This document shows positions 1 to 58,073 of a stretch of DNA of 64,000 nucleotides, in pieces. The stretch's first letter is position 1. Every line of letters starts with the position of its first letter. Under the pieces are notes generated by a model. That model had not been told where the DNA came from, searched no databases, and was given only the letters and a program-made list of their open reading frames with translations. The translations under genes were made by a program, and so were the position numbers. Origin of the DNA: Candidatus Woesearchaeota archaeon (GTDB lineage Archaea > Nanobdellota > Nanobdellia > Woesearchaeales > JAHWIC01); the NCBI GenBank assembly GCA_019322805.1, contig JAHWIC010000003.1, positions 964 to 64,963 on the forward strand. The letters run 5' to 3'.

Positions 1-468
1 GAGATGTTGAATGAGAAAAAAGATCTAACTTTATCTTTGTTGTTGAAGTGGCATAAGGAGATATTCCAGGAATCAAAATCAGATATTGCAGGAAGGTTAA
101 GAGACTATAATGTAAGGGTGGGTGATTATAGATGTCCTGACTGGCAGGATGTTAAGAATCTAATTAGAGATTTCTTTATATGGTATAATAAGAATAAAGC
201 CAAAGAACATCCTGTTGAACTTGCAGCAATGGCTCATTACAAATTTGTAAAGATTCATCCATTTGGAGACGGCAATGGAAGAATCGCAAGGCTTATTGCT
301 AACTTTGTACTTAACAAACATAGATTTCCATTGATAGTTGTAGAATATAAGGATAGGAAATCATATTACCGGGCTTTGAGAAAGGCTGATAAGGAAGAAT
401 ATGAGTTTACTAAGTATTTTGTGAGGAGATATTTAAGTATGTATAAGGATTACTTAAAAAAGCTCTGA
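1..468 (+). CDS. Fic/DOC family protein, C-terminal part (5' end probably cut by window edge)
   Basis: ORF open to the window edge. Contains the Fic active-site motif HPFGDGNGRIARL (HxFx[D/E]GNGRxxR). Confidence 0.8.
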   Translation, partial: EMLNEKKDLTLSLLLKWHKEIFQESKSDIAGRLRDYNVRVGDYRCPDWQDVKNLIRDFFIWYNKNKAKEHPVELAAMAHYKFVKIHPFGDGNGRIARLIANFVLNKHRFPLIVVEYKDRKSYYRALRKADKEEYEFTKYFVRRYLSMYKDYLKKL

Positions 469-471
469 CGC

Positions 472-1107
472 CTACCTCTTTATTTCCTTGTACTCAAAAT
501 AAGAGTAGAAAATAGGATAGAGAGCAGCAAACAAAACAGGAATAAGGAAAATCCATATAGCATATTTTTGAATGAATATTCCTGATAAGGCAATTATTCC
601 AGCTGCCTTAAACAGCTTTGCAGCAAGTTTATGTGTTTTCTCCCAAACAAGATTGCTGCTTAAAGTCCATGGAGTTTTTATTCCAATGAACCAGTTTCTT
701 TTAGCGTGTTCTACAAGAATGCCAATATAATAAATTAATATTCCAAAGGCAGGAGTAATCATTAGAGTCATGTTAAATCTATAGTTAAGGTTCCAGAGGA
801 TTGTTAATAGGTAAATATAGAACATGAATGCAATAAAGATAACAATAAACCAATCATAGTATTTTCTGAACTTTTCAACATTCTTTTTCAACGGGTCTAT
901 CCTTGGAAGGAAAATAAAAAGCAGGAAACAAGCAGTAACTACTATAGGCATCAAAAACAAACCCCAGAACTTTGGCATATAGCCGTCAACTTCTCCTGCA
1001 GAGTTCCAGTGAGATGCCATTTTATCCGGCATTTGCGGGTAAAGGCAGATTGCTATAATGAAAGATATTATGATTATTGCTAAACCAAAAATTGTTGATT
1101 TTTTCAT
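472..1107 (-). CDS. SdpI/DUF1648-like integral membrane protein
   Basis: 211-aa ORF with several hydrophobic helices. The N-terminal MPDKMASHWNSAGEVDGY motif is typical of the DUF1648/SdpI family. Confidence 0.55.
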   Translation of the reverse strand: MKKSTIFGLAIIIISFIIAICLYPQMPDKMASHWNSAGEVDGYMPKFWGLFLMPIVVTACFLLFIFLPRIDPLKKNVEKFRKYYDWFIVIFIAFMFYIYLLTILWNLNYRFNMTLMITPAFGILIYYIGILVEHAKRNWFIGIKTPWTLSSNLVWEKTHKLAAKLFKAAGIIALSGIFIQKYAIWIFLIPVLFAALYPIFYSYFEYKEIKR

Positions 1108-1143
1108 GTGATGTTTGTTTATTGATTAGTTTAAAAATCTTTT

Positions 1144-1157
1144 GCAAACCTTTAAAT
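1144..1157 (+). promoter_or_regulatory. Archaeal BRE/TATA-like promoter element (GCAAACCTTTAAAT)
   Basis: The TATA-like TTTAAAT begins 30 nt upstream of the ATG at 1181. The identical 14-mer recurs at 36911-36924, 31 nt upstream of another start codon. Confidence 0.5.
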
Positions 1158-1180
1158 CATCGAAGACGTTACCATAGAAC

Positions 1181-1699
1181 ATGGCAGATAACTATTTCAG
1201 ACCAATAAATGGTATGGAAAAGAAGATAATTGAGTCAGAGGAATTCAGGAAATGCTGTGAGTTTGGAGTAGCTAGAAAAGGCCATGCCGAAGGAAAGACA
1301 GAAGAGCACATAAGACTGATTCTGGAATATATTGAACAAAACTATAAGGAAGACCCGGATTACGAGAGATTAAGATTATTGGCGCTTTTGCATGACATGG
1401 GTAAGTTTGAAGAAGCGGACCAATCACATGCAGTCTTATCAGAACAAATATCTAAGAAATTCATTAAGGATAGAGGCTTATTGAGAATAATACGTATTCA
1501 TGATTTCCCTTGGGCATTTTACAGGATTTTTAAGAAGAAAAAACAGTTTGATAAATATAAGTTTATAGATATATTCAAAGAGATTGACTGGAGGCTCTTA
1601 GTCAAGTTCAGGTATTGTGATAACTGCAATAGGTCTCAGGAACCCTCTATATGGTTTGAGGAGAAATGCAAGGAACTCCTGAAACCATTAGAAAAATAA
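1181..1699 (+). CDS. HD-domain protein (putative phosphohydrolase)
   Basis: 172-aa ORF with H...HD signature (GHAEG ... LLALLHDMGK). Confidence 0.5.
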   Translation: MADNYFRPINGMEKKIIESEEFRKCCEFGVARKGHAEGKTEEHIRLILEYIEQNYKEDPDYERLRLLALLHDMGKFEEADQSHAVLSEQISKKFIKDRGLLRIIRIHDFPWAFYRIFKKKKQFDKYKFIDIFKEIDWRLLVKFRYCDNCNRSQEPSIWFEEKCKELLKPLEK

Positions 1700-1790
1700 A
1701 ATCCTTTTATTCCAATAAGAATATTCTTAACAAAAATATATTTAAATAGGACTTAAGAAGGATTCCTTAACAAATGAAAAGGTGGTATTT

Positions 1791-2999
1791 ATGAAGAAAG
1801 ATGGAAAGTATTTGTTTACTTCTGAGTCTGTTACAGAAGGACACCCTGACAAAGTCTGCGACCAGATATCTGACGGAATCCTGGATGCTATATACAAGGA
1901 TGATCCAAATGCGCGAGTTGCAGTTGAGGCTTTAACAACAACAGGCCTTGTTATTGTGTCTGGCGAAGTTACAACAAAATCTTATGTTGATGTACAGAAG
2001 ATTGTAAGAAATACAATAAAGAAGATTGGCTATACAAAGGCAGAGTATGGCTTTAATTCTGAGGATGTTGGTGTGTTAAGTTCAATCCATGAGCAAAGCC
2101 CTGATATTTCTTTAGGTGTAACACAGACTGAGTCACATGAGCAGGGTGCTGGTGACCAGGGAATGATGTTTGGTTATGCAACTAATGAAACTAAAGAGCT
2201 TATGCCTTTGCCTATATTGCTTGCGCATAAATTATGCATGAAATTAGCAGAAGTCAGGAAGAATAAAACCTTAAAGTATCTAAGGCCTGATGGAAAAAGC
2301 CAGGTTACTGTTGAGTATCACGATGGAACCCCAAAAAAAGTAACAACTGTTGTTATTGCAGCACAGCATGACCCTGATGCTACAGAAGACCAAGTTAAGA
2401 AAGATGTTACCGAGAAAGTAATCAAGCCAGTTTGTGGTAAATGGCTAACAGAAGATACAGTCATCCATGTTAATTCAACTGGAAGGTTTGTGATTGGCGG
2501 TCCTCCAGGAGACACAGGCTTGACAGGAAGAAAGATAATTGTTGATACTTATGGCGGCCATGGCTCTCATGGCGGCGGCTGTTTCTCTGGAAAAGACCCA
2601 AGCAAGGTAGATAGATCAGCATCTTATATGTGCAGGTATATAGCGAAGAACATTGTTGCAGCAGGCCTCGCTGATAAATGCGAGGTGCAGCTTGCGTATT
2701 CCATTGGAGTTGCAAAACCAGTTTCTGTTCTGGTGCACTGTTTTGGAACAAGCAGGATACCAGAAGATAAGATTGCAGAGCTTGTTGAGAATCATTTCCC
2801 ATTAAAGCCATCAGAGATTATTAACCACCTTGATTTGAGGAGACCGATCTACCAGAAAACAGCTGCTTACGGCCACTTTGGCAGAGATGACCCAGACTTT
2901 ACCTGGGAGAAAACAGACAAGGCTGAGCTGCTGAAAGAAGAAGCTGGTAAACTGCACAAGCCTGAGAAGACTGGGAAGGAAGTTCCGCTGGATGAGTAG
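1791..2999 (+). CDS. metK: S-adenosylmethionine synthetase, bacterial/eukaryal MetK type
   Basis: [29 protein letters not shown] and [21 protein letters not shown] motifs. The ATG at 1791 is preceded by the GGTGG SD-like sequence, so the ORF-track start at 1782 is less likely. Confidence 0.95.
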
Positions 3000-3023
3000 A
3001 TTTTTTATTTTTTCAATTAACTT

Positions 3024-3031
3024 TTTAAATA
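3024..3031 (+). promoter_or_regulatory. TATA-like box upstream of the sigma-70-like gene
   Basis: TTTAAATA begins 29 nt upstream of the ATG at 3053. This is the same spacing seen at many other genes in the window. Confidence 0.4.
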
Positions 3032-3052
3032 TAATTCTATATCTTCTTTTGT

Positions 3053-4720
3053 ATGAGGGAGCCAGCACTTAAATTAGATTATCCAGATTTGAACCCGATA
3101 GAGGGCAATAGTGTAAATCAAATTATTGAAGGGGCTAGAAATGATGGCGCTATTTCTTATGGGTTACTTAATGACAGATTACCTTCAAGCATTACTAGGC
3201 CAGGACAGATTGATGCGGTTCTTTCAAGGCTTGATGAAGAAGGCATTGATTTAGTAACCGAGATGGAGCTTAGAAAGAGGCGTTCAAGGCCTGATCCCGA
3301 GAGAATCATGGTTGATAAAGAGTCAAATCTATCAGATGCTGTGAGGATATATCTCGAACAGATGGGTGGCTATCGGCTGCTTACCCAAGATGAAGAAATA
3401 AGGTTGTCAAAAGGATTAGAAATATACTATAAGCACTTTGTCAGGGCTATCCTCCGGTCTTATGAAGGGCTCAAGGCACTTAACGAACATTACGAGAGAG
3501 TTATAGATCACTATATGGGTAGCGAATCTAGAAAATCACGAGAGCCAGAGGCTATAACCAAAATAAAGGAATACAATGAAGAAGTTAGAAAGAAACTTGA
3601 GTTGATCAGAGAAATTAATGCAGAGCTTTGTTTAAGGAGAACATCAGAGAGGAGAAAAAGAGAACTCAGGGAACTTAGAAGACAAATTATAAGAAAAGAA
3701 GCAGATTCACTTGAGGAATCGTTCTATTTGGATTATCAACCTGCCAGAGTCAAGGATTGGGTTTTGACTTCAGTGATGGAAAAATATGCTGAAGCTACTA
3801 CAAAGGTTGGGCATTATGAAGGTAGGTTAAAAGAAGAAAGGAGAACAAGAAATGATCCTAAGGAAGTCTCAAGGCTTGAAACAAGGATCGACAGATTAAA
3901 AAGACAGTATTCAGATGAATTTGGTGAGGATTGGAAGTATGTACAGATAAGACATGCATTGCTACAAAAAAGATCCAAAGCTACTGCAGCATTAGTGAAG
4001 AGACTTACGCAGGGAAACCTTCGGCTTGTTGTAAGTATTGCAAAAAAATATAGGAATAGGGGATTACCTTTCCTTGATTTGATCCAGGAAGGAAATGGCG
4101 GTTTAATGAAAGCTATTTGGAAATATGAATATAGGAGGGGCTATAAATTTTCAACATATGCAACATGGTGGATAAAGCAAGCTATAAGCAGAGCTATAAT
4201 TAATAATGCAAGAACAATAAGGATACCTGCACATATGATTGAAACGATGTCGCGCTTTCGCAAGACATCAAGGGACCTTATGCAAAGGATTGGGCATGAG
4301 CCTACAGTAGATGAGCTTGCTAAAGAGGCAGAACTTCCAATATCTGAAGTGCAGCGTCTCATGCAAATATCCAAGTACCCTGTAAGCCTTGATAGGCCTA
4401 TAGGAGATTCAAAAGATACATACTTTGGAGACTTTATTGAAGATAAAGATGTTGCAAGCCCTATAGTTGTAGCCTCTCACTACCAATTAGCAAATAAGAT
4501 CAATGAGGTATTAGATACGCTCACATACAGAGAAAGAGAAGTAGTAAAAATGAGATTTGGAGTTGGTTATGACCAAGACTTTACTTTAGACGCAGTTGGA
4601 AGAAGATTTAAGGTTACAAGAGAAAGGATAAGGCAGATTGTGGCAAAAGCTATGAGGAAATTGCAGCATCCAGTTAGGTCAAGAGAACTGGAAGGTTTCT
4701 TAGACGAAAGAGTTTCTTAG
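3053..4720 (+). CDS. rpoD: RpoD-like (group 1 type) sigma-70 factor
   Basis: Region 1.1-like N-terminus. Region 1.2: DAVRIYLEQMGGYRLLTQDEE. Region 2: NLRLVVSIAKKYRNRGLPFLDLIQEGNGGLMKAIWKYEYRRGYKFSTYATWWIKQAISRAI. Region 3 is present. Region 4.2: RFKVTRERIRQIVAKAMRKLQHP. Confidence 0.9.
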   Translation: MREPALKLDYPDLNPIEGNSVNQIIEGARNDGAISYGLLNDRLPSSITRPGQIDAVLSRLDEEGIDLVTEMELRKRRSRPDPERIMVDKESNLSDAVRIYLEQMGGYRLLTQDEEIRLSKGLEIYYKHFVRAILRSYEGLKALNEHYERVIDHYMGSESRKSREPEAITKIKEYNEEVRKKLELIREINAELCLRRTSERRKRELRELRRQIIRKEADSLEESFYLDYQPARVKDWVLTSVMEKYAEATTKVGHYEGRLKEERRTRNDPKEVSRLETRIDRLKRQYSDEFGEDWKYVQIRHALLQKRSKATAALVKRLTQGNLRLVVSIAKKYRNRGLPFLDLIQEGNGGLMKAIWKYEYRRGYKFSTYATWWIKQAISRAIINNARTIRIPAHMIETMSRFRKTSRDLMQRIGHEPTVDELAKEAELPISEVQRLMQISKYPVSLDRPIGDSKDTYFGDFIEDKDVASPIVVASHYQLANKINEVLDTLTYREREVVKMRFGVGYDQDFTLDAVGRRFKVTRERIRQIVAKAMRKLQHPVRSRELEGFLDERVS

Positions 4721-4756
4721 AAAATTATTTATAACCCAAGCTCTGTAAAATTAAGT

Positions 4757-5092
4757 ATGATAGAATCCTATTCATTCGGAACTATAAGAATTAATGGTAG
4801 GGCATATAGTAATGATGTTATAATAGCAGGAGATAAAATAATTAATTGGTTTCGGGAAGAGGGGCATAACGCAAGGATTATTGATTTTAAGAATATCCCC
4901 AATAATGATGAGGTTTTGGTTATTGGAACTGGTGCTAATGGTGTTATGAAGGTTTCTGAAGAGGTTGTTGATTATTTTAAGGATAAGAATGTTGAGTTAA
5001 TAATCAAGCCAACAGGAGAGGCAGTTAAAACTTTTAATCAATTAAAGAAACAAAATAAAAAAGTTGCTGGTGCATTTCATCTGACTTGTTAA
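4757..5092 (+). CDS. Mth938-like (DUF498) protein
   Basis: 111 aa. GTGANGVM and the C-terminal HLTC resemble the MTH938 family (HVTC). Confidence 0.6.
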   Translation: MIESYSFGTIRINGRAYSNDVIIAGDKIINWFREEGHNARIIDFKNIPNNDEVLVIGTGANGVMKVSEEVVDYFKDKNVELIIKPTGEAVKTFNQLKKQNKKVAGAFHLTC

Positions 5093-5164
5093 TCCATTGT
5101 AAACACATTGTAAAGATTATGAATATTCTCAATACCTTTATAAACTTTTGAGATATACTACTCT

Positions 5165-6286
5165 TTGGGGGTACAATTGTTAGATTCACCTAAGCTGATT
5201 TTGCCAAGCTCTGTTTCTGAAGAAAGAAAACTAGCATTAGAACCAAAGATAATTACCTTAGCAGATATTATAGGAGAACATGAGCTCTCTCCTGTTATAG
5301 AACAGAGGGGTAGAGAATTAGCTGATATATTAGAAAGCCATAAGGAACAAGTAGCAGGAGAGTCAGGTCTTGTGGCGATCCCTAAGCTGAGACTTCAAAG
5401 ACTCTATGGTTATCTTGATAAACTATTTGGCCGCGATTCTGAGGAGGGCTCAATACACTGCAAGTTGATGTATGGCATAGTGGCTTATCTTGCTGCTGAA
5501 CTTGGTATAAAGGGTGCTGGTAAATTGCATAGGGCTGGTTATGCCGCTGTTCTGCATGATATAGGCAAGGCTGCACTTCCAGCTACTGTAATGGAAGCAG
5601 TTGAGCATGGTGATGATTTCACCCCACAATTGCGTGAGCTTATGAAGGTGCATGTATTGACTGGTTATATTATTGCTGAGATGGCAACCAGGAATGTTCC
5701 TGGTTTGAGGGGGATTGCTTCTCTGATTTTATGCCATCATGAGGAGTTTGAGGGGCTTGGTTATGTTGGTCTGACAGGAAAAGGAGATAAAGTGCCTTTA
5801 GGAAATGAAGATGAGATACCCTTAGTGAGCATGATTATTTCTGTTGTGGATTCTTATTTAGCTGTAGTCCGTAAAAGAGATTATGACCCAAGGAGTCCGC
5901 CAGAAGCAACTCTGCAAGAGCTGCTTAGGGGCGCTTACCTACCGTTTAATGAAGATGTATTGAGAGAATTTAATAAAGATAAATTAGAGGAATTAAAGGC
6001 TCGTTATAAAGAGAAATATAGAGAAGGTTGGGAAACTGCATATAAAGGAGTATTAGTAACGAAGCTGGAAGGTAACACAAGAGAAGGTAGACGTATTCCT
6101 GGCGGATTTAGGTGGAACTATCAAGAATTGATCCTTAGAGGTTCTGTTGAAGAGCTTGAGAGGGCTTATACGCAGGTAAGGCTTTCTCGTGAGAGAAAAT
6201 ATTATCCTATAGTTGTTAACACTTTCATAAAACTAGTGAGGGAGCATCCTGAGATATTAAGGAAAGTGGTAGAACAAGCGCAATAG
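5165..6286 (+). CDS. HD-GYP-like HD-domain protein
   Basis: VLHDIGKAALP plus CHHEEFEGLGYVG (a degenerate HHExxDGxGYP). The start is uncertain: TTG at 5165, or the in-frame TTG at 5177, which lies 30 nt from the TATA-like TTTATAAA at 5147. Confidence 0.6.
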   Translation: MGVQLLDSPKLILPSSVSEERKLALEPKIITLADIIGEHELSPVIEQRGRELADILESHKEQVAGESGLVAIPKLRLQRLYGYLDKLFGRDSEEGSIHCKLMYGIVAYLAAELGIKGAGKLHRAGYAAVLHDIGKAALPATVMEAVEHGDDFTPQLRELMKVHVLTGYIIAEMATRNVPGLRGIASLILCHHEEFEGLGYVGLTGKGDKVPLGNEDEIPLVSMIISVVDSYLAVVRKRDYDPRSPPEATLQELLRGAYLPFNEDVLREFNKDKLEELKARYKEKYREGWETAYKGVLVTKLEGNTREGRRIPGGFRWNYQELILRGSVEELERAYTQVRLSRERKYYPIVVNTFIKLVREHPEILRKVVEQAQ

Positions 6287-6288
6287 AA

Positions 6289-6807
6289 CTATAACTTACT
6301 CTTCTCAGCTTTATCAGATATAATGGCAGAATTCCCGCTGGGATCTTCAATTATGAGCTTCATCTTTTCCTGCCCCCACATTACCTTCATGAGTTTCTTT
6401 AATTGATTCTTTGCTTTTTTCTTTGCAGAATCATCCTCTTCTGCATCACGAAGTTTTTCAATCTGCTCTTTAATCCTGGTTAAAACACCTTCAATATTTG
6501 TAACATAACCGTTTGATGCAGGCCCTGGCGTGACAGTTGCCATATGGGGAATTTTAATAGTTGCTTCAGAGGATTTTACAACTCGAACCTTCATATCTTC
6601 TTCAGAGCTGATCTCGAATGTGTATCTGCATGGTTCTTTGCGCTCAGCCGCTTCAACATCAGCTTTATTGAAGCTGCAGTTTGAGCAGCTCATTGAGAAA
6701 ACAAATACCTTACCAAAGTACGGCACCTCTGTTTCTTCTTCCATTAGCGTCAGTGTCTTCTGCCTGCACATTGGGCACGTTTCTTTCTCGACCGTCTCTT
6801 TAGCCAT
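6289..6807 (-). CDS. ZPR1-type zinc-finger protein
   Basis: CPMCRQKT ... EVPYFGKVFVFSMSCSNCSF, a typical archaeal ZPR1 module. Confidence 0.75.
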   Translation of the reverse strand: MAKETVEKETCPMCRQKTLTLMEEETEVPYFGKVFVFSMSCSNCSFNKADVEAAERKEPCRYTFEISSEEDMKVRVVKSSEATIKIPHMATVTPGPASNGYVTNIEGVLTRIKEQIEKLRDAEEDDSAKKKAKNQLKKLMKVMWGQEKMKLIIEDPSGNSAIISDKAEKSKL

Positions 6808-6874
6808 AAAACGCGAAGAAATAAGTTGATATTTATAGTTTTCTATTTGTTAAGTTGATTTCAATTTTGAATAT

Positions 6875-7015
6875 AATCATTAGAAAAATCATCAATAGGA
6901 AAAAAATCAATAAACGAAAAAAATAATTCTGATTTTTGCTTTATTCCTTTACTTAAAGCAAATCAGAATTATTTTTTTAATGATATTTCTTTTTAATGAT
7001 TTAATTTTTCTATTG
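6875..7015 (+). repeat. R-element copy R1 (minimal form: A/T-rich arms plus a single hairpin)
   Basis: AATCAATAAAC-type words, then the hairpin AATTCTGATTTTTGC ... GCAAATCAGAATT (6925-6970), then an inverted A/T-rich right arm. Confidence 0.85.
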
Positions 7016-7049
7016 TTTAAAACCTAAAAAAGAATTATTATTGCGGCTT

Positions 7050-7502
7050 CTATTCTTCAGGAACTTCAGTACTGTACTCAGTCACTTCTGTAACGCCTTC
7101 AACTGGCTCAGATTCTTCTTTCTTCTCTCCGCTTCCTTCTTTTGGACCTCTATGAATCTTTGCAAAGGAAGGGACAGCAGCAATCCAGTCTTCACCAAAG
7201 CCAGCGATATCTCCTTCGATAGCATCGCAGGTTTTCTTCAGTTTGTTTATTGCACGCTTTAACTCAACAATATCCTTGTCCTTTAATGGCTTGATATTGA
7301 TTAATGCAATTGTGTGCCCTTCCCTTAGAACATCAAGAATCGGCTTTATGTGCTCAAAATTTTCAATGACAAAAGGTCTGACAGTAATCTTGGCTTTTTC
7401 CATGCTAGGCTCAGCACCAAGCTCAACATAGCCTTCTTCCTCTTCTTCAGAACCCTCTGGTTTCTTGAGTTTTGAAAAAAATCCCATATTTTTCACCTTC
7501 AT
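7050..7502 (-). CDS. sepF: SepF-like cell-division protein
   Basis: The core ITVRPFVIENFEHIKPILDVLREGHTIALINIKPL ... AIEGDIAGFGEDW matches the SepF/DUF552 pattern, with an acidic C-terminal tail. Confidence 0.7.
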   Translation of the reverse strand: MKVKNMGFFSKLKKPEGSEEEEEGYVELGAEPSMEKAKITVRPFVIENFEHIKPILDVLREGHTIALINIKPLKDKDIVELKRAINKLKKTCDAIEGDIAGFGEDWIAAVPSFAKIHRGPKEGSGEKKEESEPVEGVTEVTEYSTEVPEE

Positions 7503-7621
7503 AAAAATAACTATTTTAGAATTGTAATAACTCCAATTTATATATAAATCTTTTGTTTCTAGAATACTACTTCAAAAGAAAAGCTTTTTAAATCAAACTT
7601 AAATCTCCTATCCTGGTTTTT

Positions 7622-7912
7622 ATGGCTAAAAGACTTGGTTCAATAAGGAGAAAAACAAGGCATAAGCTGAGTAAATCCTTCAGGAGAAGAGGGAAAATAA
7701 GCATCTCAAGCTATTTCCAGAACTTTAGTGCAGGTGACAAGGTCATTTTGTCTGCTGAATCTGCGTACCAAAAAGGCATGTATCATCCTAAATATATGGG
7801 CAAAAGTGGAGTAGTAAAAAATAAGAAAGGCAAATGCTTTGAAGTAGCTATAAGTGATAAAGGAAAAGAAAAGACTTTAATAGTACATCCAATACACCTA
7901 AAGAGGGTATAA
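7622..7912 (+). CDS. rpl21e: 50S ribosomal protein L21e
   Basis: 96 aa, basic. RRKTRHKLSK ... GDKV ... YHPKYMGKSGVV matches the L21e pattern. It is followed directly by rpoF, as in other archaea. Confidence 0.9.
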   Translation: MAKRLGSIRRKTRHKLSKSFRRRGKISISSYFQNFSAGDKVILSAESAYQKGMYHPKYMGKSGVVKNKKGKCFEVAISDKGKEKTLIVHPIHLKRV

Positions 7913-7914
7913 AA

Positions 7915-8262
7915 ATGGATACCAGCGAAATATTAAACGAGGCTCCTATGAGCATGGTTCAGCTAAAGGAAGAGCTTGAGAGAATAAAGAAACGGGATAA
8001 AGAGCTGAACTTCAGGGCAACAAAGACAGAGGAGTACCTAAGCCAGGTCATCACTCTGAAGGGTGCTGAGGGGCTTTTTAAGAAGCTAGTTGCCTTGAAT
8101 GTGCCAAGGCTTAAGGAGCAGCATATATGCAAGATAATTGATGTACTTCCGAAAACAGCTGATGATCTTAAAGTACTTCTGCAAGGTTATACACTAACAG
8201 TAAACAATCAGAATCTAAAAAAGATTATTGATGCAATCAATGAATTTTTAGCGAAACAATAA
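7915..8262 (+). CDS. rpoF: DNA-directed RNA polymerase subunit Rpo4/RpoF
   Basis: 115 aa, 2 nt downstream of L21e, in the conserved L21e-RpoF-DUF655 order. It shows the helical Rpo4-like pattern. Confidence 0.7.
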   Translation: MDTSEILNEAPMSMVQLKEELERIKKRDKELNFRATKTEEYLSQVITLKGAEGLFKKLVALNVPRLKEQHICKIIDVLPKTADDLKVLLQGYTLTVNNQNLKKIIDAINEFLAKQ

Positions 8263-8328
8263 GGGGGTGCTGATAGTTTCTAATTTTTCATCACAATATT
8301 TATAAATACTATTCAATATTTTATTAAA

Positions 8329-9255
8329 ATGGCGGTGGGGATTGAGCACGGTCATCTCAAGATTTGTGATGACTTTGCAAAAGAGGTGAACAGACTTATT
8401 GGAAGATTTAGTCCTAAGAGCTATAGGATTAACTCCGGCAAATATGAAAGCTTGTTAAGGAAAAAGAATCTGACGATTGAATCCAAAAAGAAGAAACTAC
8501 TGAAAGCATTGCATGAGGTCGTTTTACACGCACTGAGTGTTGATATCCATAATGTAAAACCAGGTAAGATAGTTGATGACCTTAGGATAAACATCAGGAT
8601 TATAAGGGCCATCATCACTAAACTGCGCGACATAAATTATTACCTTGAAGATGTGTTTTTGCATGAGCTTGGCCTTAAAGCAAAGCCGGAAAGCTGGGCA
8701 AAGACAATAAAGAAAGGCGCAAAAAAGCTTAAGGAGAAAAGCGCGCTTGGAAAGCAGGAGCTGGAAAAACTGGAGCATGCTGTTCATAAGATGATTACTA
8801 GGGTAATAACCCTTGATGAAAGATTGCTTAAGACTTACAAAAGAAGGGAAACAAAAGTCGTCAAAGATGAGCATGTACGTATAAATGATTTGGAAAAGCT
8901 CCTTGGAAAACAATCAGAGCTTTTGATGCATTTGCAGGCAAAGTTCCCGCCGCCAAATAAGGTGAAGGCAGATTTATTCGAGCCTGACAGGTTTAACCAC
9001 TGGATGCTTAGGATATTAACCGCATTATCAGCTTTGGAGCACGCTTCCCAAAAGGAAGTGGCAATTTTCCAGAGATTAAAACAAAGCAGAAAGCTCAGAA
9101 GAAAGATTGAATCCAGGATTGATTATGTGCTCAAGGAGAAATTTGAACTTATGCAAATAAAGGAGCAGCGCGTTTTGTCGTGGGAGAACATAGGAAGGAT
9201 TGATGATGCGCTGCACGAGGCAGCGCACAAATACCTTGCTGCTTCACAACTGTAA
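8329..9255 (+). CDS. Hypothetical coiled-coil protein
   Basis: 308-aa ORF, K/E/L-rich, with no motif I recognise. The TATA-like TTTATAAATA lies 30 nt upstream of the ATG. Confidence 0.6.
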   Translation: MAVGIEHGHLKICDDFAKEVNRLIGRFSPKSYRINSGKYESLLRKKNLTIESKKKKLLKALHEVVLHALSVDIHNVKPGKIVDDLRINIRIIRAIITKLRDINYYLEDVFLHELGLKAKPESWAKTIKKGAKKLKEKSALGKQELEKLEHAVHKMITRVITLDERLLKTYKRRETKVVKDEHVRINDLEKLLGKQSELLMHLQAKFPPPNKVKADLFEPDRFNHWMLRILTALSALEHASQKEVAIFQRLKQSRKLRRKIESRIDYVLKEKFELMQIKEQRVLSWENIGRIDDALHEAAHKYLAASQL

Positions 9256-9261
9256 AACAAC

Positions 9262-9360
9262 AAAATTCCGAAGGAATTTTGTGTCGCGAGAAACGCATAG
9301 CGTTTCTGTGTGCCAGAAATGCGGAGCATTTCTGAGCAGCTCAAAAAACCGAAGGTTTTT
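9262..9360 (+). other. Array of four consecutive triloop hairpins
   Basis: AAAATTCC-gaa-GGAATTTT (9262-9280). AGAAACGC-ata-GCGTTTCT (9289-9307). CAGAAATGC-gga-GCATTTCTG (9314-9334). AAAAACC-gaa-GGTTTTT (9344-9360). Confidence 0.85.
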
Positions 9361-9364
9361 CGAC

Positions 9365-9922
9365 ATGGAACGGACAAAGGAAGAAACAGTAGTTGTACTG
9401 GACTTTTTGCCGAATGGCTACCCATTTGACACAAGGCCTATCTACCAGAAAACTGCGATAGCGCAAGCTATAGGCAAGGAGCACTTTGTTTTACTGGAAC
9501 TAGCCCCTAAGAAGGATATCCATTTACAGCCTTATGAGGAGGTTTATATCGGAGAGGGCAAGCGTGACAAGGTGCATCACATAGTTGGAAAGCTTCCTAT
9601 AGATAAACTTACTGCAACAGCAAAGTCTGAGCTGGAATATGTCATAAAGGATATTGTAAATAAAGACGAAAAAAGGTTTGTTGACTTTTTCAATAAGGCA
9701 CAGCCCTTAAGCACAAGAATGCACCAGATAGAGCTTTTGCCAGGCGTTGGAAAGAAGCATATGTGGCAGATAATAGATGCAAGAAAGGAAAAGCAGTTTG
9801 AGAGTTTTAAGGACATAAAGAAGCGCGTTAAGCTTATGCCTGATCCGGAGAAGGCAATCATAAGAAGGATACTTCTGGAACTTCAAGGCAAAGAGAAACA
9901 CAGGTTGTTTGTTGACGTATAA
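9365..9922 (+). CDS. DUF655 (HhH-containing) protein
   Basis: MERTKEETVVVLDFLPNGYP ... LLPGVGKKHMWQIIDAR. The start is set at the ATG at 9365, because the upstream part of the ORF-track frame runs through the hairpin array. Confidence 0.8.
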   Translation: MERTKEETVVVLDFLPNGYPFDTRPIYQKTAIAQAIGKEHFVLLELAPKKDIHLQPYEEVYIGEGKRDKVHHIVGKLPIDKLTATAKSELEYVIKDIVNKDEKRFVDFFNKAQPLSTRMHQIELLPGVGKKHMWQIIDARKEKQFESFKDIKKRVKLMPDPEKAIIRRILLELQGKEKHRLFVDV

Positions 9923-13290: not shown

Positions 13291-13971
13291 ATGCTAAGAT
13301 TAATTAAAACCCGGCATGGAGAAACCCAGTATAACATAGAAAATCGTATTCAGGGAGGTATTGACACGGAGTTAACACCTCATGGCATAAGGCAAGCTGA
13401 AATGTTAGCAGACCACTTTAGGGATACTCCTATTGATTATGTTGTCTCAGGCACCTTAAAAAGGCAGGCCCAAACAGCAGGGGTTATAGCTAGGCCGCGA
13501 GGAATTAGTGTTGTACATGATGAAGGACTGAATGAAAGGGATTGGGGCAGATTCAATGGACGTTATGAACATGAGGTTGATACAGGAGGCATCCCCCTTA
13601 CCCGTTATCTTTTTTATATGGTAGATCCTAATGATGATAGTAACCCAAAAATAGAGAAAGGCCCTGAACATAAAGGAGAAACAATTGAAGAAATGATGCG
13701 TAGGATAGGACTATTTTATGATAGGCTTGTCGATAGATATGTAGACGCTACGATGTTGATTGTTGGAAGTCAGTTCTCAAATGCTTACCTCTTGAATCAT
13801 GTTCTTGGAATTCCGCCGGAATGTCCTGTTTTATTTGCCCAAGAAAATATGTGCATAAACGAGATAAGGGTTTATCCTAAAAAAGATGCCGGAAGACCTG
13901 TAGAGGTTGTTGATATAAATTTTATGGAGCATGTCCATTACAGGGATGGGTCAGTGCAAGGTACAGATTAG
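13291..13971 (+). CDS. Histidine phosphatase (phosphoglycerate mutase-like) family protein
   Basis: N-terminal RHGETQYN catalytic motif. The TATA-like TTTAATAA lies 31 nt upstream. Confidence 0.8.
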   Translation: MLRLIKTRHGETQYNIENRIQGGIDTELTPHGIRQAEMLADHFRDTPIDYVVSGTLKRQAQTAGVIARPRGISVVHDEGLNERDWGRFNGRYEHEVDTGGIPLTRYLFYMVDPNDDSNPKIEKGPEHKGETIEEMMRRIGLFYDRLVDRYVDATMLIVGSQFSNAYLLNHVLGIPPECPVLFAQENMCINEIRVYPKKDAGRPVEVVDINFMEHVHYRDGSVQGTD

Positions 13972-14918
13972 TATTCTAAACCAATTCTTGAGACGGTAAG
14001 ATGGATCAATACCTCCAGGATCTGTTCCATATTTGATAGGATAAAAAGGTTATTTGCAGGCACCTTTTTCACTAATGACCCCACTTTGTCAAATATTATG
14101 GACCTATCTTTGCTTAACTTCTCTGCCTTTTTAAGGTCAAAATTATAGAAAAAGTCATGATACAAAGAAAGAGTTTCCTGTACATCTGATATGATTGATA
14201 TAGCATCTTTTGCTAACTTTATCTTATGTGCCGTTACAAACCTAGAGCAGTATTTGATTATATCTATTATTTCATCAAGAGAAGAGATAATATGGTATAG
14301 AGTATTTGTTTTTTTATCATCAGTATAACCAAACTTATTTAAAAGTCTTAGGTTATATGCTGCAAATTTAGTTATGGTGTCATGTTTTTCATTTATGGTG
14401 TCTAGTAGCATATGATTGTTTTCTTTTGAACCTTTAACTAAATCCTTGCTTGCGTCAATCAAGAGCAGGAATATACGCCGCAGGATAGTATCAAGTTCCT
14501 TGATCACACCTTCAGATATATCTTTGATAAAGCAGGAATTTTCCTTTTGCTGTATGATCTCGATTCCATTTAATCTGTTGACCTCCTCTTTTATTGATGA
14601 AATAACTGTTACATCCTTCCCTATTTTGTGGTGTTTGGTAGTAACGTCATCAAATCTTAATTTCATTTCATCATAGCCTTTTATGTATAAGCATCTGATA
14701 AGGAACATCAAAGAATCTCTATCCAGGTTGCTTATATCAACTTCGACACGTCCTAAAGACTGTCCTTGCTCTGTACTAACAATAATCTTACTACCTTCCT
14801 CCTTAATATCGAGTTCATCTCCTTTCTTAACCTCATGCTTTTGCGCCCACTTCCTTGGCAAAGAAATCAGCTGTGTAGAATCTGCAATCTGTATAACTTT
14901 TCTTTTCAGTTTAACCAC
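13968..14918 (-). CDS. AbrB/SpoVT-domain plus PhoU-like regulator
   Basis: The N-terminal VIQIADSTQLISLPRKWAQKHEVKKGDELDI is an AbrB/MazE-type swapped hairpin, followed by a helical PhoU-like repeat region. Confidence 0.7.
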   Translation of the reverse strand: MVKLKRKVIQIADSTQLISLPRKWAQKHEVKKGDELDIKEEGSKIIVSTEQGQSLGRVEVDISNLDRDSLMFLIRCLYIKGYDEMKLRFDDVTTKHHKIGKDVTVISSIKEEVNRLNGIEIIQQKENSCFIKDISEGVIKELDTILRRIFLLLIDASKDLVKGSKENNHMLLDTINEKHDTITKFAAYNLRLLNKFGYTDDKKTNTLYHIISSLDEIIDIIKYCSRFVTAHKIKLAKDAISIISDVQETLSLYHDFFYNFDLKKAEKLSKDRSIIFDKVGSLVKKVPANNLFILSNMEQILEVLIHLTVSRIGLEY

Positions 14919-15901: not shown

Positions 15902-16561
15902 ATGGCTCTATACATTGTTGCAACACCAATTGGGAATCTGGAGGATATTAGCTTTAGGGCAATTAAGGTATTAAATGAGGTAGACTTGATTCTAGCAGAA
16001 GATACAAGAAGAACATCAATATTACTAAATCATTATAAGGTTAAGAATAAAATTGAATCATTTAATGATTTTAATAAAGAGAAGAAAACACCGTCGATAA
16101 TTGAGCAATTAAAAAATAATAAAAGAATAGCTATTGTTTCTGATTCTGGAACTCCTGGAATATCTGATCCTGGGTTTTATTTGGTAAGAGAAGCTGTTAA
16201 GGAAGGAATTGATATAGTTCCTATTCCAGGTGCAAACGCAGCTATAACAGCTTTGGTCAGCTCTGGTTTTGCTACAGATAAATTTATGTTTTTGGGCTTT
16301 TTACCAAAGAAAGAGAATCGGTTGAAAAAATCATTAATGGAGATTAAAAAAAATAATATCACGACGATATTCTATGAGTCTCCTTATAGGATAGAAAAAA
16401 CTCTGAGATTAATGAGTGAAATAATTCCTGATAAAAAAATATGCATTGCTCGCGAACTAACAAAGAAATTTGAGGAGTTTATTCGAGGAACTGCTTCTGA
16501 AATTCTTAAGAAAAAGCCAAAGTTTAAAGGAGAGATTACTGTTGTGGTTGGGAAGGGTTAG
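15902..16561 (+). CDS. rsmI: 16S rRNA (cytidine-2'-O)-methyltransferase RsmI-like
   Basis: LYIVATPIGNLEDISFRAIKVLNEVDLILAEDTRRT, SDSGTPGISDPG and FYESPYR motifs of the RsmI/tetrapyrrole-methylase fold. Confidence 0.85.
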   Translation: MALYIVATPIGNLEDISFRAIKVLNEVDLILAEDTRRTSILLNHYKVKNKIESFNDFNKEKKTPSIIEQLKNNKRIAIVSDSGTPGISDPGFYLVREAVKEGIDIVPIPGANAAITALVSSGFATDKFMFLGFLPKKENRLKKSLMEIKKNNITTIFYESPYRIEKTLRLMSEIIPDKKICIARELTKKFEEFIRGTASEILKKKPKFKGEITVVVGKG

Positions 16562-16636: not shown

Positions 16637-17671
16637 TTGGTAACTCTTACACAAGTAGTAACTAGCGAATTCCTGGATCGTGCAACACGTTCCTATAGAA
16701 TAGGCCCTTATATTCTTCATAGATGCATTGCTTATGGGGGCCATAGTGTAGTCTATGAAGTAACCCATCCAGATAAACAAGGACCACTAGCACTAAAATT
16801 AGCGGGTGTGGGGAAATCCATTACATCAGTAAAGCCTGAGGACCCAAGCAAAGGTTCTGATAAAGAATCTACATGGATTGCTACTGTAGAAAAACCAAAA
16901 CGCACGTATACTCGTGATGATATTCCTACTGTAACTGATAAAAAGGAAAAGGCCCGTGTAGAAATGATGATGAATGAACGCAGGATTCTGGGAATCCTGG
17001 GTGAGCATGAGAACATAGCAAGTCTTGAAGGTCAAGGAGAATATATATTAAATATCAAAACAAGAAAAGGAGAAGAAAAAGCTTTCTTGATGTATGCTGT
17101 TTACCCACGTGTTAAGGCAATCCAAACAGAACGTCTTGAGTCAGGTGCATTAAGCATAGAAGAAGTCTTAGAGATTATGCTAGGTGTTGCAAATGCAGGC
17201 GCGTATTGCCATGAACATGAAGTAATACACTGCGATATCAAGCCTGCCAATATTCTTGTTGACAGGCGTACTTATAAACCAAAGCTTACAGATTTTGGGA
17301 TAGCGCTTTATGTTCCTGATGGAAAACTACAAGGAATGTTGGGAAGTCCAGTTTATATGAGTCCAGAACATGTTATTGGTGCAGTGGAGTATAAATCTGA
17401 TGTGTTTTCGCTAGGCTCTACTTCATTCCATTTGTTAACAGGCATTCAGCCTATAGATAGTGATGAAGCGGATACCAACAAAGCAACGTTTGATATAGCT
17501 TTAAAGATAGCTCATGGAGAGATGGATGCATATAACATTCCTATCAGATCTGTTAGACCTGAGGCTCCTAAGAGACTTGTGAAATTAATTAATGGAATGA
17601 TGGCTAAGAAAATCCAGGACAGACCTGGTATGAAAGAAGTAGCAAGTGAGGTTGCTGCAACAAAGGGTTAA
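16637..17671 (+). CDS. Ser/Thr protein kinase
   Basis: HCDIKPANILV, DFGIA and SPEH motifs. TTG start as given in the ORF track. Confidence 0.85.
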   Translation: MVTLTQVVTSEFLDRATRSYRIGPYILHRCIAYGGHSVVYEVTHPDKQGPLALKLAGVGKSITSVKPEDPSKGSDKESTWIATVEKPKRTYTRDDIPTVTDKKEKARVEMMMNERRILGILGEHENIASLEGQGEYILNIKTRKGEEKAFLMYAVYPRVKAIQTERLESGALSIEEVLEIMLGVANAGAYCHEHEVIHCDIKPANILVDRRTYKPKLTDFGIALYVPDGKLQGMLGSPVYMSPEHVIGAVEYKSDVFSLGSTSFHLLTGIQPIDSDEADTNKATFDIALKIAHGEMDAYNIPIRSVRPEAPKRLVKLINGMMAKKIQDRPGMKEVASEVAATKG

Positions 17672-22696: not shown

Positions 22697-23080
22697 TCAA
22701 TTCAAAAATTCAATAAAAAAATCATCATTAGGAGAATAATCAATAGAAGAAAAATAAACGGAAATCAGGATTTCCTAGTTGCGCTCGCTTCGCTCGGCAA
22801 CAATCTGATTTTTGCTTTCTTCTCTTCGTTAAGGCAAAAATCGTCTTAAGTGGTTCTTTAAGAAACAGAATAAGACGAAAATTCCTTTATCGCGATGAAG
22901 AAAGGAATTTTCAGATTGTGTATAAATTATGAAATAATTTACTACACTAGAAAAATGTGTTAGCATTTTTCGTTGATTAATTGTTATTAAATAAAACTAA
23001 AGGGCATCAACCGAAACAAACGCACAACTGATTGTGATGGATGAAATTTAACCTAATGATAAATTAAATTGATAGTTAAA
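22695..23080 (+). repeat. R-element copy R3 (long form; core 22804-22915)
   Basis: The same module order as R2, plus three additions: a 5' hairpin module GGAAATC/GATTTCC, an extra hairpin GAAAAATG/CATTTTTC, and a right-hand module ending at the thiE ATG. Confidence 0.9.
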
Positions 23081-23713: not shown

Positions 23714-23791
23714 AATAAGGCCATATGAATCATGGAAAGACTAATCTGGAAAAAATACAAGCCTAAGCGAGGATTTTGACAAGATCAGAAA

Positions 23792-39174: not shown

Positions 39175-39260
39175 TCCATACTTGGTTATTGAGAATAGTA
39201 TTTAACTTTTTGTCTTAATTATAGAAAACTTATTAAATGATATTTCTAAGACTAGGTGTT

Positions 39261-56962: not shown

Positions 56963-56963
56963 A

Positions 56964-58070: not shown

Positions 58071-58073
58071 TTC

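What the first reader, a model, noticed from the sequence alone, without database searches (positions are those of the whole stretch)
3053..4720. Full-length bacterial housekeeping-type sigma-70 (RpoD-like) gene in an archaeal genomic context
The 555-aa ORF has every sigma-70 region: a 1.1-like N-terminus, region 1.2, regions 2.1-2.4 including YKFSTYATWWIKQAISRAI, region 3, and region 4.2 (VTRERIRQIVAKAMRKL). Yet it lies on the same DNA as unmistakably archaeal genes, with ZPR1, SepF, L21e and Rpo4 within 3-5 kb. Its ATG sits 29 nt downstream of a TATA-like TTTAAATA, the same geometry as native genes. That argues for an integrated, expressed gene rather than a chimeric assembly. No bacterial RNA polymerase core subunit is present in this window. 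What a sigma factor would bind in an archaeon is open. It might bind the archaeal RNAP, a host or symbiont bacterial RNAP, or DNA alone. I vaguely recall reports of sigma-like genes in some DPANN genomes but cannot cite them.
Basis: partly seen in the sequence, partly recalled or inferred. Interest (0 to 1): 0.65.

Follow-up and report, generated by a model that had tools for sequence, protein, structure and literature searches.

The report
Bacterial RpoD sigma gene in Woesearchaeote
A small DPANN archaeon (Woesearchaeota) carries an intact, full-length bacterial housekeeping-type sigma factor gene, acquired long ago from a Planctomycetota-like bacterium and driven by a native archaeal promoter; sigma-70 genes in DPANN archaea were reported in 2021, but what the protein binds in a cell with no visible bacterial RNA polymerase is still unknown.

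Summary
Window 3053..4720(+) encodes a 555-aa protein with all five sigma-70 Pfam regions (1.1, 1.2, 2, 3, 4). It matches solved RpoD structures (E 4e-96), and its AlphaFold model hits sigma70 holoenzyme chains. The surrounding DNA is Woesearchaeal (AtpA 91% to a named Woesearchaeote; L21e, Rpo4, aIF1A, ZPR1, DUF655, A-ATPase).

It is not a mis-join. Three assemblies give the same junctions, codon usage and GC match the window, and the gene has the native TATA-box geometry.

The sigma forms a 100%-bootstrap clade with only two other proteins among 5.8 billion clusters. Both sit on contigs with archaeal-type promoters. The clade nests in Planctomycetota-type primary RpoDs at about 48% identity. 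None of 80 related DPANN loci sharing the adjacent archaeal gene block has a sigma.

The -10, -35, core-docking and sigma-finger residues are conserved. dN/dS in regions 2-4 is about 0.2, weaker constraint than in bacteria. No bacterial RNAP core or anti-sigma gene lies in the 74 kb seen, and sigma70-type promoters are not enriched.

Sigma-70 genes in DPANN, especially Woesearchaeota, were already reported by Castelle et al. 2021 (PMC8204110). This is a new, well-characterised member of a known but unexplained kind. The binding partner remains open.

The parts
3053..4720 (+). Intact 555-aa RpoD-like (group 1 architecture) sigma-70 gene
   Evidence: ORF. Pfam regions 1.1, 1.2, 2, 3 and 4. NCBIfam best hit is RpoD PRK05658 at 451 bits, below the 555 cutoff. 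PDB RpoD match at E 4e-96. AF2 model pLDDT 80, and Foldseek top hits are sigma70 chains in holoenzyme structures.
3110..3268 (+). Region 1.1 (aa 20-72), the acidic autoinhibitory domain
   Evidence: Pfam PF03979, 33.6 bits. pLDDT is 86-94. Net charge is -7 against a bacterial median of -11.
3335..3415 (+). Region 1.2 (aa 95-121)
   Evidence: Pfam PF00140, 32.4 bits. The near-invariant bacterial Pro is replaced by Ala at aa 96.
3428..3967 (+). Non-conserved region (aa 126-305), a long helical, net-basic insertion
   Evidence: All-helical in the AF2 model. Only 14-20% identical to the clade mates and to bacteria. dN/dS is about 0.5.
4010..4213 (+). Region 2 (aa 320-387): core docking (2.2), DNA melting (2.3) and -10 reading (2.4)
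   Evidence: Pfam PF04542. Residues L341 D342 Q345 E346 N348 M352 Y369 W372 W373 Q376 R380 correspond to E. coli L402 D403 Q406 E407 N409 M413 Y430 W433 W434 Q437 R441. K375 replaces R436 and S379 replaces T440.
4241..4462 (+). Region 3 (aa 397-470), including the extended -10 readers and the sigma finger (3.2)
   Evidence: Pfam PF04539. H394 and E397 correspond to E. coli H455 and E458. The finger ...GDSKDTYFGDFIEDK... is 86% identical to the bacterial consensus, although the AF2 model has low confidence (pLDDT below 50) there.
4508..4669 (+). Region 4 (aa 486-539), the -35 reading helix-turn-helix
   Evidence: Pfam PF04545. R523 E524 R527 Q528 correspond to E. coli R584 E585 R588 Q589 and are invariant in the trio. 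E591 is replaced by V530.
3024..3031 (+). TATA-like box TTTAAATA, 29 nt before the ATG (putative archaeal promoter, leaderless or short leader)
   Evidence: Sequence. The position matches the window-wide mode. This geometry is seen in 18% of archaeal control genes and 2% of low-GC bacterial control genes.
3000..3013 (+). T-rich tract ATTTTTTATTTTTT directly after the MetK stop codon (possible archaeal oligo-T terminator; inference)
   Evidence: Sequence. The function is inferred only.
1782..2999 (+). Upstream neighbour: bacterial-type MetK (not co-transferred with sigma)
   Evidence: TIGR01034, 582 bits. Homologs at 63-68% identity occur in 7 related DPANN loci without a sigma.
4757..6286 (+). 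Downstream neighbours DUF498 (4757..5092) and HD-GYP-like (5177..6286), part of the lineage-specific segment
   Evidence: Pfam. Absent from 80 related loci. Relatives carry MTAP-like, ADH, aldolase and APRT genes in this slot.
6289..9922 (.). Conserved archaeal core block ZPR1(-), SepF(-), L21e, Rpo4, hyp308, DUF655, which abuts the sigma segment
   Evidence: Pfam. The block is syntenic in 42 DPANN loci of at least 6 kb.

Best explanation
SHOWN. The gene is a horizontally acquired primary sigma factor (rpoD) of Planctomycetota type. It is fixed in the chromosome of a Woesearchaeote, in a lineage-specific segment next to a conserved archaeal gene block. It belongs to a tiny clade of three archaeal-context sigmas. 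It is fully adapted to host composition and preceded by a native archaeal TATA box. It is intact and under purifying selection in regions 2-4, though more relaxed than in bacteria. INFERRED. The protein is still a working sigma-like module. It keeps the residues that dock on the RNAP clamp coiled-coil (region 2.2) and those that melt and read a -10 element (Y/W/W/Q/R of 2.3-2.4, H/E of 3.0). It also keeps the residues that read a -35 element (R-E-x-x-R-Q of 4.2), and a strongly conserved sigma finger. The finger is a linker that the model leaves at low confidence (pLDDT below 50) and that would only be constrained by sitting in an RNAP cleft. No bacterial core is visible. The archaeal clamp coiled-coil and active-site cleft are homologous to the bacterial ones. 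The most likely partner is therefore the cell's own archaeal RNAP. On it the sigma would act as an accessory or competing initiation or regulatory factor at a small set of -35/-10-like sites, alongside TBP, TFB and TFE. Confidence: identity and HGT about 0.95; retained RNAP- and DNA-binding function about 0.55; archaeal RNAP as the partner about 0.3-0.35. The overall figure reflects the mechanism.
For: Identity. Archaeal host: AtpA is 91% identical to a Candidatus Woesearchaeota protein, and archaeal markers are present. Not chimeric: the same neighbours appear in three assemblies, with 0-3 mismatches, none in sigma. Host-like composition: GC3 0.32 and a codon-usage distance of 0.103, among the lowest in the window. 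Promoter. Clade and origin: NJ tree with 100% bootstrap for window + P0007 + P0100, nested among Planctomycetota-type RpoDs on long branches. A profile search gives 894-1043 bits for the trio and 620 bits for the next hit. L086 and L089 have archaeal-type promoters in 8 of 14 genes, against 3 of 131 in low-GC bacteria, and share MFS, DUF5652 and RsmI with archaeal loci. Lineage-specific insertion: 0 of 80 syntenic loci have a sigma, and relatives carry different genes in the slot. Constraint: dN/dS is 0.19-0.24 in regions 2-4; 83 of 93 bacterial near-invariant positions are kept; the finger is 86-90% identical to the bacterial consensus in the window sigma and P0007, and 71% in P0100. Functional residues. 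No bacterial core or anti-sigma in 74 kb.
Against: No experiment or transcript data show expression or binding. Only about 74 kb of the genome was seen, so a bacterial-type core elsewhere cannot be excluded. Sigma70-type -35/-10 sites are not enriched in 60 kb: 142 found against about 163 expected. The window protein violates 10 of 93 near-invariant bacterial positions, above the bacterial 95th percentile of 7. dN/dS is higher than the bacterial baseline of 0.14 or less. Region 1.1-1.2 shows omega of about 1 between P0007 and P0100. The clade is extremely rare and absent from close relatives, as expected for a dispensable gene. The bacterial flap-tip helix that holds sigma region 4 has no established equivalent in archaeal RNAP (general knowledge). 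The phylogeny is neighbour-joining on a sample biased toward the closest hits.
Confidence: 0.35

Rival explanations
1. Dispensable HGT passenger. The rpoD copy landed in a variable region, is transcribed because any AT-rich upstream DNA can evolve a TATA box, and is slowly decaying without a cellular role.
For: The clade has only three members in 5.8e9 clusters. It is absent from 80 related loci. Branches are long. The window protein has 10 of 93 invariant-site violations. Omega is higher than in bacteria, and about 1 in region 1.1-1.2 for one pair. Target promoters are not enriched.
Against: Three diverged lineages (dS about 0.8-1.1) all keep intact ORFs of 522-586 aa, with omega of about 0.2 in regions 2-4. 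All DNA-reading and core-docking residues and the finger, which the model leaves at low confidence, are kept. The gene is fully ameliorated and each copy has a native promoter. DPANN genomes are small and are generally thought to shed useless genes (general knowledge).
Confidence: 0.2
2. The sigma acts on a bacterial RNAP that is not the archaeon's own transcription machinery. Either it is delivered to a bacterial partner or host cell to reprogram it, or an undetected bacterial-type core is encoded elsewhere in the genome. The closest analogy is plant nuclear SIG genes, which serve the plastid's bacterial-type polymerase.
For: The bacterial core-docking and flap-binding residues are almost unchanged. 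The finger is conserved. The recognition residues are those for canonical TTGACA/TATAAT promoters. DPANN are generally regarded as episymbionts (PMC8204110 abstract).
Against: No core genes are present in 74 kb. No secretion signal or delivery system was identified next to the gene. The known or proposed hosts of Woesearchaeota are archaea, not bacteria (general knowledge). Castelle et al. report sigma alongside TBP, TFB and TFE without mentioning a bacterial core.
Confidence: 0.15
3. Stand-alone DNA-binding regulator. With weakened region 1.1 autoinhibition, free sigma binds -35/-10-like sequences through regions 2 and 4 and represses or modulates archaeal promoters without docking on any RNAP.
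For: Region 1.1 is less acidic than in bacteria (-3 to -7 against a median of -11). Region 1.1-1.2 evolves nearly neutrally in one pair. The helix-turn-helix readers are conserved.
Against: This idea does not explain conservation of the finger or of the region 2.2 docking surface. Region 1.1 is still recognisable and confidently folded. No enrichment of -35/-10 pairs was found.
Confidence: 0.15
4. Assembly or binning artefact: a bacterial contig fragment joined to archaeal DNA.
For: The gene's closest relatives are bacterial, and the adjacent MetK is also of bacterial type.
Against: The junctions are identical in three assemblies made with different assemblers. Composition is host-like, at GC 0.39 against 0.65-0.70 for the nearest bacterial contigs. 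The promoter is of archaeal type. The closest bacterial protein is only 48% identical. Bacterial-type MetK is itself widespread in related DPANN loci.
Confidence: 0.02

Closest known systems
Bacterial primary (group 1) sigma factor RpoD/SigA, Planctomycetota type
   Same: It has the same domain order (1.1, 1.2, NCR, 2, 3, 4) and a similar length of about 550 aa. Regions 2-4 are 70-82% identical. All canonical -10, extended -10, -35, core-docking and finger residues are present. It nests inside this radiation in the tree.
   Different: It is encoded in an archaeon with no dnaG-rpoD operon (bacterial relatives have one) and is driven by an archaeal TATA promoter. It scores below NCBIfam RpoD equivalog cutoffs (451 against 555; 327 against 354 for RpoD_Cterm). 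It has 10 of 93 near-invariant positions changed, higher dN/dS and a less acidic region 1.1. No bacterial core is visible.
Sigma-70 family genes in DPANN archaea (fam00359 of Castelle et al. 2021, Front Microbiol, PMC8204110)
   Same: This is a bacterial sigma-70-class gene on a scaffold with archaeal markers, in Woesearchaeota, the lineage where they report such genes as most prevalent. No anti-sigma factor is nearby. The mechanism is unknown.
   Different: That paper gives no architecture, donor, clade structure, promoter or selection analysis. Here the gene is specifically a full-length group 1 RpoD, of Planctomycetota-type origin, in a three-member clade that is absent from 80 related loci. 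Whether it falls into their fam00359 could not be tested, because the supplement is not searchable.
Nuclear-encoded plastid sigma factors (plant SIG1-SIG6)
   Same: These are sigma-70 genes resident in a genome that uses a non-bacterial transcription system and expressed from host-type promoters (general knowledge).
   Different: Plant sigmas have a known bacterial-type partner, the plastid-encoded polymerase in the organelle. No such compartment or core is known for Woesearchaeota.
Archaeal TFB (with TBP and TFE)
   Same: TFB is the functional analogue. It occupies the same RNAP surfaces (dock, cleft, clamp), and its B-reader sits where the sigma finger sits. The review PMC7289017 notes only very limited sequence similarity between sigma-70 and TFB.
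   Different: They are not related at the family level. The window protein has no TFB signature and is a bona fide sigma-70.
MzaA (sigma-70 family component of the MZA anti-phage system)
   Same: It shares generic sigma regions 2-4: PADLOC 227 bits, NCBIfam 335 bits.
   Different: The score is far below the NCBIfam cutoff of 800. The match covers only regions 2-4. No other MZA genes are nearby.

Membership tests
Sigma-70 family, group 1 (primary RpoD/SigA) | All conserved regions 1.1, 1.2, 2, 3 and 4 present in order | tested here: met
   All five Pfam domains score above their gathering thresholds. The AF2 model aligns to full-length E. coli sigma70 chains.
Sigma-70 family, group 1 (primary RpoD/SigA) | Scores above curated RpoD equivalog thresholds (NCBIfam) | tested here: not met
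   PRK05658 scores 451 against 555. PRK09210 scores 364 against 572. TIGR02393 RpoD_Cterm scores 327 against 354. Only the superfamily model TIGR02937 passes, at 104 against 42.9.
Sigma-70 family, group 1 (primary RpoD/SigA) | Canonical promoter-reading and core-docking residues | tested here: met
   Residues corresponding to E. coli Y430, W433, W434, Q437, R441, H455, E458, R584, E585, R588, Q589, L402, D403, Q406, E407, N409 and M413 are conserved. R436K and T440S are conservative changes.
Sigma-70 family, group 1 (primary RpoD/SigA) | Phylogenetic placement within primary sigma clades | tested here: met
   It nests among Planctomycetota-type RpoDs (NJ). Only the trio node was bootstrapped at 100%. 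Deeper nodes were not assessed and no ML tree was built.
Sigma-70 family, group 1 (primary RpoD/SigA) | Cognate bacterial RNAP core (rpoA/B/C) in the same genome | tested here: inconclusive
   None was found in the 64-kb window plus 10 kb more.
Sigma-70 family, group 1 (primary RpoD/SigA) | Housekeeping role or essentiality; typical dnaG-rpoD linkage | tested here: not met
   No dnaG is upstream; MetK is there instead. The bacterial relatives P0005 and P0016 do have dnaG-rpoD. Close relatives of the archaeon lack the gene, so it is not universally required. Essentiality itself is not testable here.
DPANN sigma-70 genes (Castelle et al. 2021) | Sigma-70-class gene co-encoded with taxonomically informative archaeal proteins on one scaffold | tested here: met
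   L21e, Rpo4, aIF1A, ZPR1, DUF655 and an A-ATPase lie on the same contig. AtpA is 91% identical to a Woesearchaeota protein.
DPANN sigma-70 genes (Castelle et al. 2021) | No anti-sigma factor accompanying it | tested here: met
   No anti-sigma domain was found in any scanned ORF of the window.
DPANN sigma-70 genes (Castelle et al. 2021) | Membership of their protein family fam00359 | not testable with these tools
   The family HMM and member list are not available. The supplement search returned nothing.
MZA anti-phage system (MzaA) | MzaA-level score and neighbouring MzaB-E genes | tested here: not met
   NCBIfam 335 against a cutoff of 800. The PADLOC hit covers regions 2-4 only, and the neighbours give no MZA hits.

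The most novel reading that the evidence does not exclude
A bacterial primary sigma factor has been domesticated to dock on an archaeal (Pol II-like) RNA polymerase. It would use the homologous clamp coiled-coil and cleft, and would add a bacterial-style -35/-10 promoter-reading layer, or a TFB/TFE competitor, to archaeal transcription. That would make it a natural hybrid of the two initiation systems.
Probability: 0.15. Interest if true: 0.9.

Novelty: new member of a known kind. Interest (0 to 1): 0.45.

Why it matters
Sigma factors and TBP/TFB are the two mutually exclusive solutions to promoter recognition by multisubunit RNA polymerases. A sigma that is retained under selection in an archaeon, with every RNAP-docking and DNA-reading residue intact, points to one of three things. 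It could be an unrecognised cross-domain compatibility, an inter-domain manipulation of a bacterial partner, or a new stand-alone use of the sigma fold. This locus gives a concrete, full-length, clearly archaeal example, plus two clade mates, with which the question raised by Castelle et al. in 2021 can be tested biochemically. It also illustrates how far DPANN genomes mix bacterial informational and envelope genes (RsmI, MetK, Lgt/LspA) with an archaeal core.

Tried and rejected
1. Chimeric assembly or contamination. Rejected on three concordant assemblies, host-like composition and an archaeal promoter.
2. Co-transfer with the adjacent bacterial-type MetK. Rejected because MetK recurs at 63-68% identity in 7 related DPANN loci that lack a sigma.
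3. Viral or mobile-element origin. The IMG/VR scan found only RpoD genes no closer than the bacterial ones, mostly at contig ends. No integrase or tRNA lies nearby.
4. MZA defence system. Rejected.
5. Enrichment of sigma70-type promoters in the window. Not found: 37 against 59.5, 41 against 52.2, and 64 against 51.8.
6. GTDB representative-genome scan for archaeal relatives.
7. Source names for L086 and L089 genes. No organism names were available, so the domain of those contigs had to be inferred from promoter geometry and shared genes.
8. Castelle 2021 supplements. No searchable sigma or fam00359 entries.
9. Population SNPs for pN/pS. The assemblies are identical across the sigma gene.
10. 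tRNA and Rfam scans of the window. Nothing found.
Full report
OBSERVATION. Window 3053..4720(+) is an uninterrupted 555-codon ORF with an ATG start. Its product matches all five sigma-70 Pfam regions above gathering score: r1.1 at aa 20-72, r1.2 at 95-121, r2 at 320-387, r3 at 397-470 and r4 at 486-539. Its best NCBIfam matches are RpoD models (PRK05658, 451 bits, E 7.5e-135). All of these fall below the curated equivalog cutoffs (555; and 327 against 354 for RpoD_Cterm), and only the sigma-70 superfamily model passes. It matches solved RpoD/SigA chains at E 4e-96. An AlphaFold2 model built on a 60-sequence alignment has mean pLDDT 80, and Foldseek returns sigma70 chains of RNAP holoenzyme structures over about 500-590 aligned columns. 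The neighbours ZPR1, SepF, L21e and Rpo4 are confirmed.

HOST. The window is archaeal. It encodes L21e, Rpo4, aIF1A, DUF655, ZPR1, Thi4, an ATP-dependent DNA ligase and a complete A-type ATPase operon. The ATPase A subunit is 91% identical to a protein named Candidatus Woesearchaeota archaeon, and the next roughly 100 hits are Woesearchaeota, Nanoarchaeota or other DPANN. The window also carries several bacterial-type genes: MetK (TIGR01034), RsmI (TIGR00096, above cutoff), Lgt, LspA, IscS/IscU and an HD-GYP-like protein. This is the hybrid gene content described for DPANN by Castelle et al. 2021 (PMC8204110).

NOT AN ARTEFACT. The identical protein, with the same flanking genes, occurs in a 97-kb JGI contig, a 50-kb ENA MEGAHIT contig and a 4-kb Logan contig. 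Over the shared DNA these differ from the window by zero mismatches, three mismatches and one indel, none of them in the sigma gene. The gene's GC (0.388), GC3 (0.32) and synonymous codon usage (distance 0.103, among the lowest of 56 genes) are typical of the window. The nearest bacterial rpoD contigs, by contrast, have GC 0.65-0.70. TTTAAATA sits at 3024-3031, 29 nt before the ATG and after a T-rich tract that follows the MetK stop codon. In the window, 23 of 57 genes have such a box 24-45 nt upstream, against about 4% expected from motif density, with a sharp mode at 28-31 nt. With blind ORF calling, a box at 27-32 nt is found for 18% of window genes. The figure is 18% (44/242) for genes in 14 related archaeal loci and 2% (3/131) for genes in 13 low-GC bacterial loci. 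The gene therefore carries the host's promoter geometry. Expression itself is inferred, not shown.

ORIGIN AND RELATIVES. In a search of 5.8 billion protein clusters the best non-self hits are only about 48% identical. The named ones are mostly Planctomycetota RpoD. Two of the top bacterial hits sit in classic dnaG-rpoD operons on high-GC contigs. A neighbour-joining tree of 151 sequences puts the window protein with P0007 and P0100 at 100% bootstrap. This trio nests within the Planctomycetota-type radiation, with root-to-tip lengths of 0.75-0.85 against a median of 0.63. A profile built from the trio scores its members at 894-1043 bits and the next protein at 620 bits, so the clade has just three members in the database. 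P0007 (contig L086, GC 0.32) and P0100 (L089, GC 0.31) lack classical archaeal markers on the short DNA available. However, 8 of their 14 genes, including both sigma genes, have the TATA box at 27-32 nt. L086 also shares an MFS transporter, a DUF5652 protein and its closest RsmI with the archaeal loci rather than the bacterial ones. I infer that all three are DPANN genes descended from one transfer.

LINEAGE-SPECIFIC LOCATION. I used the DUF655 gene 4.6 kb downstream as an anchor and retrieved 80 DPANN loci. The ZPR1(-)-SepF(-)-L21e-Rpo4-hyp308-DUF655-hyp207 block is conserved in 42 loci of at least 6 kb. None of the 80 loci contains a sigma homolog. Bacterial-type MetK recurs in seven of them at varying positions. 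To the left of ZPR1, 10 of 14 long loci carry an MTAP-like phosphorylase, usually with dehydrogenase, aldolase and APRT genes. None of these are in the window. The sigma therefore lies in a lineage-specific segment (1..6286: Fic, SdpI-like, HD, MetK, sigma, DUF498, HD-GYP-like) that abuts a conserved archaeal core block. It was not co-transferred with MetK.

FUNCTIONAL STATE. The offset to E. coli sigma70 is +61 for regions 2-4. With that numbering, the following are conserved in the window protein, and nearly all of them across the trio:
- The region 2.2 core-docking residues: L402, D403, Q406, E407, N409, M413.
- The melting and -10 residues: Y430, W433, W434, Q437, R441.
- The extended -10 readers: H455 and E458.
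- The -35 readers: R584, E585, R588, Q589.
R436K and T440S are conservative changes. The region 3.2 finger is a linker that the model leaves at low confidence (pLDDT below 50). It is nonetheless 86-90% identical to the bacterial consensus in the window protein and P0007, and 71% in P0100. Of 93 columns that are at least 95% invariant in the bacterial set, the window protein differs at 10. P0007 differs at 6 and P0100 at 3. The bacterial median is 0 and the 95th percentile is 7. Nei-Gojobori dN/dS among the three genes is 0.19-0.24 in regions 2-4, 0.43-0.55 in region 1 and the NCR for window comparisons, and about 1 for region 1.1-1.2 between P0007 and P0100. Bacterial rpoD pairs give 0.14 or less, or saturated dS with dN of only 0.06-0.16. 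Region 1.1 is still recognisable and confidently folded, but it is less acidic (-3 to -7 against a median of -11). Together these results indicate a protein under real but relaxed purifying selection. The constraint is concentrated on the parts that touch RNAP and promoter DNA.

WHAT IT COULD ACT ON. No bacterial RNAP subunit or anti-sigma domain was found in about 56 scanned ORFs. The largest ORF is 722 aa and has no Pfam hit. The next 10 kb of the contig also has none. Sigma70-type -35/-10 pairs are not enriched: 142 found against about 163 expected over 60 kb. The PADLOC and NCBIfam MzaA hits are generic, and no MZA partner genes are present. IMG/VR holds nothing closer than the bacterial RpoDs.

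MY READING. A conserved docking surface and a conserved finger argue for a function inside a multisubunit RNAP cleft. The only RNAP known in such cells is the archaeal one. Its clamp coiled-coil and cleft are homologous to the bacterial ones, and TFB's B-reader occupies the sigma-finger position (general knowledge; see PMC7289017). That makes the archaeal RNAP the most likely partner. Its probability is only about one in three, and nothing here tests it. The rivals are a dispensable passenger gene, action on a bacterial partner's RNAP, and stand-alone DNA binding. They are weighed in the rival-explanations section.

PRIOR KNOWLEDGE AND NOVELTY. Castelle et al. 2021 (PMC8204110) state that sigma-70-class genes (their fam00359) occur in DPANN. 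They describe them as particularly prevalent in Woesearchaeota and say mis-binning was excluded. They found no anti-sigma factors and call the controlling mechanism unclear. Further literature searches found no later mechanistic work. The phenomenon is therefore known and unexplained. This locus adds several details:
- A full-length group 1 architecture.
- A probable Planctomycetota-type donor.
- A three-member archaeal clade.
- A lineage-specific insertion site.
- A native promoter.
- Quantified, relaxed purifying selection.
I classify it as a new member of a known kind and score interest at 0.45. The residual novel possibility, a sigma working on an archaeal RNAP, would be highly interesting if shown.

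Noticed in passing
window 1782-2999: A bacterial-type S-adenosylmethionine synthetase (MetK, TIGR01034, 582 bits) is present instead of the archaeal MAT family. Homologs at 63-68% identity recur in 7 related DPANN loci, so it looks like an old, widespread acquisition.
   Followed up: partly
window 15902-16561: A bacterial 16S rRNA C1402 2'-O-methyltransferase (RsmI, TIGR00096, 248 bits against a cutoff of 167.9) is encoded in an archaeon with its own TATA box at -31. Its closest homolog (62-66% identity) is on L086, next to that contig's sigma gene.
   Followed up: partly
window 34214-34984 and 39237-39716: The bacterial lipoprotein maturation genes Lgt (prolipoprotein diacylglyceryl transferase) and LspA (signal peptidase II) are both present in this archaeal contig.
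   Followed up: no
window 4757-6286: DUF498 (Mth938-like) and an HD-GYP-like (HD_5) protein lie directly downstream of sigma, each with its own TATA-like box. Neither occurs in the 80 related loci. A possible functional link to sigma was not tested.
   Followed up: partly
window 1-1699: A Fic-domain gene (SoFic-like in PADLOC) is cut by the window start. It is followed by an SdpI-like membrane protein on the minus strand and a small HD protein, with a compact divergent promoter region (1108-1180) carrying two opposed TATA boxes.
   Followed up: no
L086 4134-4613 and L089 2736-3269: In both other members of the sigma clade, a staphylococcal-nuclease-like (SNase) gene lies within about 600 nt of the sigma gene: directly upstream in L089, and one gene (VIT1) downstream in L086. 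The window has no SNase near its sigma.
   Followed up: no
window 21911-25057: A thiamine biosynthesis cluster (Thi4, ThiE, ThiC) is present, and no TPP riboswitch or any other Rfam family was detected anywhere in the window.
   Followed up: no
window 13968-14918 (-) and L173 12254-13198 (-): Two paralogous proteins of about 315 aa have an N-terminal AbrB/MazE-like domain and are otherwise unannotated. Homologs appear in several related DPANN loci.
   Followed up: no
window 16637-18653: A eukaryote-like Ser/Thr protein kinase overlaps by 26 nt with a DUF7343 winged-helix protein. This may be a kinase-regulator pair.
   Followed up: no
window 55241-58448: An ATP-dependent DNA ligase, an M50 site-2 protease with a CBS domain, and a stand-alone LigD_N 3'-phosphoesterase domain lie in one same-strand run of genes.
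   Followed up: no
L173 13479-19487 (beyond the window end): A 2002-aa predicted surface protein has GH113, NosD/beta-helix and CARDB domains. It may be an adhesin of the episymbiont.
   Followed up: no
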